Part shown: positions 8,050 to 9,034 of the stretch, piece by piece
How the letters are laid out: every line of letters starts with the position of its first letter
How positions within the stretch are numbered: position 1 is the first letter of the stretch
Assembly (NCBI GenBank): GCA_951406725.2
Contig: OX597834.1
Coordinates: forward strand, 36,890,001 to 36,954,000
Source of the DNA: Octopus vulgaris
Taxonomy: Eukaryota
Direction of reading: 5' to 3'
Length of the DNA: 64,000 bases
Program-made: the position numbers

Positions 8050-9034
8050 CGCTAATGGTGTTATTGATGTGGGTATTGCAACTGATGATCAGCAGCATCA
8101 TCTCTACTACCACATCCCCCACCACAACCACCACCACACCGCTCTCATCATCATCATCATCATTATCATCATCGCCATCGCCTTTTACCACTCATCATTT
8201 CATTCTTGTAAGTTTCCTTGTATGTTTTAAAAACCTTACAATATCCATTCCCAATAACGTCACCGATAATATCTTCCATCTCCGCCACGCCTCTCCTCCT
8301 CCTCCTCCTCCTCCTCCTCCTCTCCTTCTTCATCCCCTTCTTCATCTTCTTCTTCTTCTTCTTCTTCTTCTTCTTTTTCTTCTCCTTCTTCTTCTTCTTC
8401 TTTTCACCATTATATTACACCATTATCAATTATTTCGTTTCTCGCTCTCTCTTTATTTTTTAAATTATTTTCTTTATTTCTATATCTATATACGTATATT
8501 TTTTTTCATCTTTTTCTTTTCTTTTGTCCCTACAGGATACGAACAATTATCGTCTGGAGTATCCAGCCTGGATTGTCTATCATTGATAGTAGAGAGTATA
8601 AGTCCCACAGGTACGACGTCAATGTTAAACAGCATCAATGCTGCTGGCCAGACGACACATCCGCCATGTTGAATAATATCTCCTTTCGCTCTTTGCTAAA
8701 ACTGCACATTTAAACGATAAACAAAAGATGAATGACGAAGATGTTATGAAAAACAAATAAATCAATAAACAATATCAATAATAACGATAATAATGAAGAT
8801 GATAATATTAATAACTACAATTGTATTATTAATAATAACGGGAATGATTATAACAATACTAATAACCTGAGCAAGACTAAAGACAATTATGAAACTCTGG
8901 TATTGTGTAAAAGCAGACGTCACTTGTTTGCCGCATAAAAAGGAATATATATATATGTGCGTGCGTGTGGATGTGTGCGTTATATATATATATATATATA
9001 TACATATATAACACACACGCACATATATACACGC

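What the first reader, a model, noticed from the sequence alone, without database searches (positions are those of the whole stretch)
8536..8672. Isolated MyoD helix-III exon hidden at the end of a junk ORF
Seen: a clean acceptor and the peptide SSLDCLSLIVESIS. Established: helix III is an MRF-specific C-terminal motif involved, with the His/Cys-rich domain, in Pbx/Meis-dependent activation of silent muscle loci. No bHLH exon is visible in 1-8535, which implies a last intron over 8.5 kb, far larger than in vertebrate MRF genes. No other gene is recognisable for 55 kb downstream. A 45-codon exon among microsatellites could be missed by gene models.
Basis: partly seen in the sequence, partly recalled or inferred. 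Interest (0 to 1): 0.7.

Follow-up and report, generated by a model that had tools for sequence, protein, structure and literature searches.

The report
Last two exons of MyoD-family gene
This stretch is the real last coding exon of an invertebrate MyoD-family muscle gene, and the exon before it lies 3.7 kb upstream in the same window, so it is an ordinary gene whose introns are swollen by repeats.

Summary
Positions 8536-8672 (+) follow a strong acceptor and encode 45 residues plus a TGA stop. Residues 9-25, VSSLDCLSLIVESISPT, are letter-for-letter the C-terminal helix III block of protostome myogenic regulatory factors (MRFs) from Limulus and bivalves.

The exon is not isolated. A second MRF exon lies at 4802-4883 (+), 82 bp, with a CAG acceptor and a GTACGA donor. 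Its phase fits exon 3, and the split Gly codon restores the N-G-Y-E-Q seen in scallop and limpet MRFs. The last intron is therefore 3,652 bp, not over 8.5 kb. About 40% of it is microsatellite and SINE-like repeat.

The bHLH exon is not in the window on either strand, so intron 1 is longer than 4.8 kb. This is the usual three-exon MRF layout with helix III in exon 3.

No other gene was recognised among the longer ORFs scanned. No protein in the searched collections carries these exact exons, so this is probably an unannotated orthologue, most like lophotrochozoan MRFs. It is ordinary and of low novelty.

The parts
1..4801 (+). 3' part of intron 1 of the MRF gene (inferred). The bHLH-bearing exon 1 lies upstream of the window.
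   Evidence: No HLH or Basic Pfam hit in 96 + strand ORFs of at least 30 aa. No bHLH tblastn hit on either strand (all 12 HSPs outside the two exons have E>=1.5). Contains SINE-like copies at 2776-3298 and microsatellites.
4802..4883 (+). MRF exon 2, 82 bp. It encodes TVNSPQQYYSEKLHHLGEIPNNYNPQN plus the first base of a Gly codon.
   Evidence: tblastn: 10 of 11 MRF queries hit it unfiltered and 8 of 11 with default filters, best E=5e-4. The acceptor is TTTTTTCAG, ending at 4801, and the donor is GTACGA at 4884. It is 64-70% identical to the same block of mollusc and annelid MRFs.
4884..8535 (+). Intron 2, 3,652 bp, GT...AG, phase 1.
   Evidence: Read from the sequence. 1,479 bp (40.5%) are tandem repeats or SINE-like copies.
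7911..8535 (+). Non-coding upstream part of the 253-codon 'junk' ORF, kept open by trinucleotide microsatellites, then the polypyrimidine tract and acceptor.
   Evidence: The translation is runs of V, L, S and P. TRF arrays lie at 7932-8049, 8145-8173 and 8293-8402. The only family signal in the whole ORF is the Myf5 match at its last residues.
8536..8672 (+). MRF exon 3 coding part: 45 residues (the first Gly codon is split with exon 2) and the TGA stop at 8670-8672.
   Evidence: The homologous block lies at the C-terminus of the MRFs fetched.
8556..8603 (+). Helix III core (GVSSLDCLSLIVESIS).
   Evidence: 11 invariant and 3 near-invariant columns across 23 sequences. AlphaFold2 predicts a helix over residues 8-22, mean pLDDT 79 for residues 11-20.

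Best explanation
The window holds the last two exons of a single-copy-type protostome myogenic regulatory factor gene (MyoD / nautilus / SUM-1 family), read on the + strand.

- **Exon 2** is 4802-4883.
- **Exon 3** is 8536-8672.
- **Exon 1**, with the His/Cys-rich, basic and HLH regions, lies upstream of the window.

Exon 2 encodes the conserved NSPxxYxxKLHH block. Exon 3 encodes helix III and a short tail.

**Shown here:** the two exons, their canonical splice sites, their order, their orientation and their matching phase. The splice itself is inferred from these.

**Inferred from work on vertebrate and Ciona MRFs:** helix III is a short C-terminal helix. Together with the His/Cys-rich region it lets the factor work with Pbx/Meis-type partners and switch on muscle genes in silent chromatin.

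The introns are long because SINE-like elements and microsatellites have been inserted, not because the gene is built differently.
For: **Exon 3**
- It matches MRFs only. 11 of 12 hits and 24 of 24 hits carry PF00010 and PF01586.
- VSSLDCLSLIVESISPT is identical in Limulus and bivalve MRFs.
- All invariant columns are met.

**Exon 2**
- Found independently by tblastn at 4796-4885.
- Both exon blocks are collinear with the homologues. In P0014, exon 2 matches residues 302-325 and exon 3 matches 328-359 of 368.

**Splicing**
- Exon 2 ends with G before GTACGA, and exon 3 starts with GA after CAG. The split codon is GGA (Gly).
- That gives N-G-Y-E-Q across the junction, as in Pecten (TNGYEQ) and Patella (NNGYE).
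- A 51-aa database fragment, P0015, begins ...FVGYEQ. This is what a last exon read from its acceptor would give, so the boundary may be shared. This is inference.

**Layout**
- MYOD1 has three exons, and skipping exon 2 shifts the frame and destroys helix III in exon 3 (PMC9528969, passages read). Here exon 2 is 82 bp, also not a multiple of three.
- MRF exon structure is said to be similar in invertebrates and vertebrates, with one MRF in each protostome surveyed (PMC7530620, passages).

**Structure**
- A helix is predicted for residues 8-22.

**Function**
- Helix III and the H/C domain, with Pbx: PMC9528969 discussion.
- Ciona Mrf: the two domains are redundant (PMC6589888, passages).
Against: - The bHLH exon, which defines the family, is not in the window. 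That the two exons belong to an intact gene is therefore inferred.
- The Pfam Myf5 score of exon 3 is below the gathering cut-off (20.8 against 23 bits). Exon 2 alone gives no Pfam hit.
- E-values in the 5.8-billion-protein search are weak (best 0.011) because the query is only 45 aa.
- The extreme C-terminus (THPPC) lacks the [ED]RPL ending of 16 of the 22 homologues aligned.
- The AlphaFold model is only moderately confident (mean pLDDT 61.6).
- Amphipathicity is not significant (moment 0.32; 7.5% of shuffles are as high).
- There are no expression or splice-junction data.
Confidence: 0.9

Rival explanations
1. One reading: an isolated helix III exon whose nearest upstream coding exon is the bHLH exon beyond the window, so the last intron exceeds 8.5 kb.
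For: No bHLH in 1-8535.
Against: A collinear, phase-compatible MRF exon with canonical splice sites lies at 4802-4883. The last intron is therefore 3,652 bp.
Confidence: 0.03
2. A gene relic: a partial duplicate or decaying copy that kept only exons 2 and 3, with no functional exon 1. The working MRF gene is elsewhere.
For: Exon 1 is not seen in the window. The C-terminal [ED]RPL ending is not kept. No database protein carries these exons.
Against: Both exons are open and both splice sites are canonical with matching phase. Every invariant helix III column is intact. Protostomes surveyed have a single MRF (PMC7530620; PMC5381572 table 1).
Confidence: 0.06
3. Alternative C-termini. GT at 8611 and AG at 8650-8651 would bound a 41-nt phase-compatible segment. 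Removing it, or using 8652 as an acceptor from exon 2, would read the other frame, DDTSAMLNNISFRSLLKLHI. That gives a second tail, or an isoform without helix III, as in Ciona.
For: TSAMLN at 8657-8674 (other frame, + strand) is the only 6-mer not of low complexity, out of 278 taken from homologue tails, that occurs anywhere in the six-frame translation of the window. The GTACGA hexamer equals the exon 2 donor.
Against: - This was a post hoc observation.
- The main-frame tail fits the homologues better. It scores 13.2 against 9.2 bits on the tail profile and is higher in 22 of 22 pairwise alignments.
- There is no significant DNA similarity between the two halves.
- 41 nt is shorter than usual animal introns (recalled, not tested), and no pyrimidine tract precedes the AG.
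Confidence: 0.05
4. A chance match in a microsatellite-generated ORF.
For: The Pfam score is below the cut-off. The surrounding ORF is junk.
Against: There is a 17-residue exact identity to MRFs of distant phyla. E=4.7e-7 against 1.84 billion proteins. A second collinear MRF exon lies upstream.
Confidence: 0.005

Closest known systems
Lophotrochozoan MRFs, for example Pecten maximus 'myogenic factor 6-like isoform X1' (P0020), Patella caerulea (P0018), Owenia fusiformis (P0002) and the unnamed P0014
   Same: They have the same exon 2 block (NSPQ.Y..KLHH.GE), the same NGY[ED]Q junction, an identical helix III core, and a tail of similar length. Identity is 64-70% for exon 2 and 75-79% for exon 3.
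   Different: The window's tail ends in QTTHPPC rather than [ED]RPL. No hit is close enough to be the same or a sister species. Their gene structures could not be inspected, because no eukaryotic genome collection was on hand.
Limulus polyphemus 'transcription factor SUM-1-like' (P0001, P0004)
   Same: Best word-search hit: 65% identity over 96% of exon 3. It has the identical SVSSLDCLSLIVESISPT and a tail ending in HPV, like the HPPC here.
   Different: The exon 2 block is less similar (61% over 18 residues).
Vertebrate MyoD and Myf5
   Same: Three exons. Exon 2 is short, and skipping it shifts the frame. Helix III lies in exon 3 (PMC9528969). The Pfam Myf5 profile end matches.
   Different: Vertebrate genes are compact (recalled, not tested here). 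Here intron 2 is 3.7 kb and intron 1 is over 4.8 kb. The role of helix III with Pbx has been shown only in vertebrates.
Ciona Mrf (isoforms with and without helix III)
   Same: It is an invertebrate MRF with a C-terminal helix III encoded at the 3' end of the gene (PMC6589888).
   Different: Alternative splicing that drops helix III is documented in Ciona. Here it is only a speculative reading.

Membership tests
MRF (MyoD / Myf5 / nautilus / SUM-1) family of bHLH factors | C-terminal helix III motif (SSLDCLS.IV..IS) | tested here: met
   All 11 invariant and 3 near-invariant columns of a 23-row alignment are met. The 17-mer is identical in Limulus and bivalve MRFs.
MRF (MyoD / Myf5 / nautilus / SUM-1) family of bHLH factors | bHLH domain (PF00010) preceded by the myogenic Basic domain (PF01586) | tested here: inconclusive
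   Not present anywhere in the window. By the family's exon layout it should lie in exon 1, upstream of position 1, which cannot be read here.
MRF (MyoD / Myf5 / nautilus / SUM-1) family of bHLH factors | Pfam Myf5 domain (PF12232) at its gathering score | tested here: not met
   Exon 3 alone scores 20.8 bits against a cut-off of 23 and covers only profile positions 54-71 of 71. Exon 2 alone gives no hit. The joined model was not scored. Only 3 of 24 full-length protostome MRFs carry this Pfam label, so the profile is marginal for this clade.
MRF (MyoD / Myf5 / nautilus / SUM-1) family of bHLH factors | Three-exon layout: a short exon 2 whose length is not a multiple of three, and helix III in the last exon | tested here: met
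   Exon 2 is 82 bp, intron 2 is phase 1, and helix III lies in the terminal exon. Compared with MYOD1 as described in PMC9528969 and the statement of shared exon structure in PMC7530620. Exon 1 was not seen.
MRF (MyoD / Myf5 / nautilus / SUM-1) family of bHLH factors | Collinear post-bHLH blocks (NSP..Y..KLHH, then NGY.Q, then helix III, then the stop within about 20 residues) | tested here: met
   The junction codon was read by eye.
MRF (MyoD / Myf5 / nautilus / SUM-1) family of bHLH factors | The motif folds as an amphipathic alpha-helix | tested here: inconclusive
   A helix is predicted for residues 8-22, pLDDT about 79 in the core and 61.6 overall. The hydrophobic moment of 0.32 is reached by 7.5% of shuffles.
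MRF (MyoD / Myf5 / nautilus / SUM-1) family of bHLH factors | Expression in muscle precursors and myogenic activity | not testable with these tools
   No transcript data or assays are available.

The most novel reading that the evidence does not exclude
The terminal exon may encode two C-terminal readings.

- A frame-shifted second copy of the tail motif (DDTSAMLNNIS..., 8651-8713) lies just past an internal GT (8611) ... AG (8651) pair that is phase-compatible both with the upstream part of exon 3 and with the exon 2 donor.
- If that pair is used, the gene would make either an alternative tail or an isoform lacking helix III. That would be a protostome counterpart of the Ciona and pufferfish isoforms.

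Separately, current gene models of this lineage may end the MRF early and so understate how well helix III is conserved.
Probability: 0.05. Interest if true: 0.35.

Novelty: new member of a known kind. Interest (0 to 1): 0.12.

Why it matters
The practical value is for annotation. A 27-codon exon and a 45-codon exon, separated by repeat-filled introns, are easy for gene predictors to drop. No protein in the collections searched carries them. Adding them would give this species' MRF its helix III, the part linked in vertebrates to opening silent muscle genes. It would also add one more data point that the three-exon MRF layout and the helix III sequence are almost unchanged across bilaterians. 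It opens no new biological question.

Tried and rejected
- **bHLH in the window.** Pfam scan of 96 + strand ORFs of at least 30 aa in 1-8710 and tblastn with 11 MRFs on both strands. None found.
- **Other genes.**
  - Pfam scan of 171 further ORFs. They were chosen from the 890 ORFs of at least 40 aa by entropy of at least 3.4 bits, and by length: at least 70 aa downstream, and at least 60 aa on the minus strand upstream.
  - No family reached its cut-off. The sub-threshold hits (New_glue, SR-25, Orf78 and others) fall on low-complexity ORFs.
  - Shorter and low-entropy ORFs were not scanned, so small exons could be missed.
  - Rfam found 0 families and ARAGORN found 0 tRNAs.
- **This species' own protein.**
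  - The exon 2 peptide alone was too short for the word search.
  - The 57-aa ORF around it (P0013) gave 0 hits among 10 candidates.
  - Exon 3 gave no near-identical hit.
- **Tail duplication.** DNA alignment of 8596-8648 against 8649-8715 scored 12.0, against a shuffle mean of 12.0. A 19-position tail profile did not place either tail among its top 15 of 3,302 ORFs. Scored directly, the main frame beats the other frame.
- **Taxon from the repeat.** A 22-nt piece of the SINE-like repeat was found in 0 papers. My recollection that such a tRNA-derived SINE resembles cephalopod SINEs is untested.
- **Paper not held.** Bergstrom and Tapscott 2001 (PMC86873) is not held. It is cited only through PMC9528969 and PMC7530620.
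- **Steps not done.**
  - The joined exon 2 + exon 3 model was not searched or folded. The exons were handled one by one.
  - The genome-contig collection holds only bacteria and archaea and was not used.
  - As a result, intron positions in relatives remain unchecked.
  - The supplements of PMC7530620 (alignments, species list) were not opened.

Full report
**Observation**

Positions 8536-8672 on the + strand follow a long pyrimidine tract that ends in CAG at 8533-8535. In the frame whose codons start at 8535, the sequence reads GYEQLSSGVSSLDCLSLIVESISPTGTTSMLNSINAAGQTTHPPC and then TGA at 8670-8672.

The 253-codon ORF that ends there (7911-8672) is open upstream only because (GTA)n, (TCA)n, (CTC)n and (TCT)n arrays contain no stops. 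Its translation upstream of 8535 is runs of V, L, S and P. The window has no N and is about 35% G+C.

**Is it more than chance?**

- Pfam's Myf5 family (PF12232) matches residues 5-22 to the last 18 profile positions, with E=6.9e-4 and 20.8 bits. That is just under the 23-bit cut-off.
- In the word-indexed search among longer proteins, 12 proteins scored E<=10 out of 44 candidates.
  - 11 of the 12 carry the HLH and myogenic Basic domains.
  - The named ones are Limulus SUM-1-like, Owenia, Mercenaria, Mya and Mactra.
  - The twelfth, P0012, has no Pfam domain and carries the motif near its N-terminus.
- Reading these proteins shows VSSLDCLSLIVESISPT identical and always within about 20 residues of the C-terminus.
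- An exhaustive phmmer search of 1.84 billion representatives found 4 proteins at E<=0.001. The best is a 368-aa MRF at E=4.7e-7. The fourth, P0017 (1,304 aa, 31% identity), was not examined.
- A follow-up search with the C-terminal 99 residues of that MRF gave 24 hits. All 24 carry HLH and Basic domains. The named ones come from molluscs, Owenia, Limulus, Macrobrachium and Rhodnius nautilus.
- In a 23-row alignment the window peptide meets all 11 invariant columns and the 3 near-invariant ones.

**The exon is not isolated**

- tblastn of 11 MRFs against the window found a second locus at 4796-4885 on the + strand.
  - It was hit by 10 of 11 queries without filters.
  - It was hit by 8 of 11 with default composition and low-complexity filters, best E=5e-4.
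  - In that filtered run all 11 queries hit exon 3, and the other 12 HSPs all had E>=1.5.
- The sequence shows TTTTTTCAG ending at 4801, then 82 bp encoding TVNSPQQYYSEKLHHLGEIPNNYNPQN plus one G, then GTACGA at 4884.
- Exon 3 starts with GA after its CAG. The split codon is therefore GGA (Gly), and the reading across the junction is N-G-Y-E-Q.
- Pecten has TNGYEQ, Patella has NNGYE and P0014 has SHGYDQ at that place.
- The two blocks are collinear and adjacent in the homologues.
- I read this junction by eye.
- Intron 2 is 4884-8535, which is 3,652 bp. Of this, 1,479 bp (40.5%) is tandem repeat or copies of a ~185-bp SINE-like element.

**What is missing**

No HLH or Basic match exists in 96 + strand ORFs of at least 30 aa in 1-8710. 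Neither strand of the window has one by tblastn. The only matches to the HLH part are E~9 hits at 27041-27103 that include a stop. Exon 1 must therefore lie upstream of the window, and intron 1 exceeds 4.8 kb.

**Comparison with what is known**

- MYOD1 has three exons. Skipping exon 2 shifts the frame and destroys helix III in exon 3 (PMC9528969, passages read). The 82-bp exon 2 here would do the same.
- PMC7530620 states that MRF exon structure is similar in invertebrates and vertebrates, calls helix III highly conserved, and finds one MRF in every protostome surveyed (passages read).
- PMC5381572 table 1 lists one MyoD gene in most lophotrochozoans (passage read).
- On function, helix III with the His/Cys-rich region supports activation of silent muscle genes and Pbx interaction in mouse (discussion of PMC9528969). 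In Ciona the two domains are redundant, and one isoform lacks helix III (PMC6589888, passages read).
- For this organism these functions are inferred.
- AlphaFold2, with the 23-row alignment as input, predicts a helix over residues 8-22. Core pLDDT is about 79 and the mean is 61.6.
- Amphipathicity was not significant.

**Taxon**

Both exons are most similar to lophotrochozoan MRFs: P0014, P0019, Pecten and Owenia, at 64-79% identity. No hit is close enough to name the species. The source names of several hits could not be looked up.

**Surroundings**

- No Pfam family reached its cut-off in 171 further ORFs across the window (selection described).
- Rfam found no family and ARAGORN found no tRNA.

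**An unexplained detail**

- TSAMLN is a 6-mer of the P0014 tail. It occurs at 8657-8674 in another frame of the + strand, overlapping the stop.
- It is the only 6-mer not of low complexity, out of 278 from homologue tails, that appears anywhere in the six-frame translation.
- GT at 8611 and AG at 8651 would link it in phase.
- However, the main-frame tail fits the homologues better: 13.2 against 9.2 bits, and 22 of 22 pairwise comparisons.
- The DNA halves are not significantly alike.
- I keep the TGA at 8670 as the stop and list the alternative as a low-probability rival.

**Verdict**

These are the genuine exons 2 and 3 of an ordinary MRF orthologue with repeat-expanded introns. Novelty is low: a new member of a known kind, probably unannotated in the collections searched.

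Noticed in passing
window 2776-3298, 5009-5976, 9777-10374, 16731-16916, 31719-32298, 47911-48120, 52609-53361: A ~185-bp SINE-like repeat with a tRNA-like B-box region gives 21 blastn hits in the window, often as head-to-tail pairs or triplets. Six copies lie in intron 2 of the MRF gene. A 22-nt piece was found in no paper. Any link to known cephalopod SINEs is my recollection only.
   Followed up: partly
window 8651-8713 (+), frame +2 relative to exon 3: The other frame reads DDTSAMLNNISFRSLLKLHI*. TSAMLN is the only homologue-tail 6-mer not of low complexity found in the whole six-frame translation. It overlaps the stop and lies after a phase-compatible GT(8611)...AG(8651) pair. The main frame still fits the homologues better.
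   Followed up: partly
window 8640-8669: The extreme C-terminus is AAGQTTHPPC. 16 of the 22 homologues aligned end in [ED]RPL, Limulus ends in HPV or RPV, and Macrobrachium has ...QPPSQKTHI. This is a lineage-specific tail or a small indel.
   Followed up: partly
window 8756-8761 and 8764-8769: Two AATAAA hexamers lie 84-97 nt after the stop. The sequence here is AT-rich, so they are not evidence of a poly(A) site.
   Followed up: no
window 1-12000 (TRF) and throughout: Microsatellite load is very high. There are 34 TRF rows in the first 12 kb alone, including (TA)n 8981-9321, (AT)n 1437-1609 and (TATG)n 6641-6815. Elsewhere, trinucleotide arrays create long His-, Asn-, Ser- and Thr-rich pseudo-ORFs (for example around 14.2-14.5 kb, 30.6-31.3 kb, 46-47.9 kb and 61 kb) that gave spurious tblastn hits.
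   Followed up: partly
window 21755-22723 (-): This is the longest ORF in the window (323 codons stop to stop). It has no Pfam match at E<=0.001. Its entropy of 3.65 bits suggests a repeat-derived ORF.
   Followed up: partly
protein P0012 (309 aa, unnamed): This database protein has no HLH or Basic domain but starts with ...SSLDCLSLIVESISPT and continues for about 260 residues. It looks like a mispredicted model that begins in another species' helix III exon.
   Followed up: no
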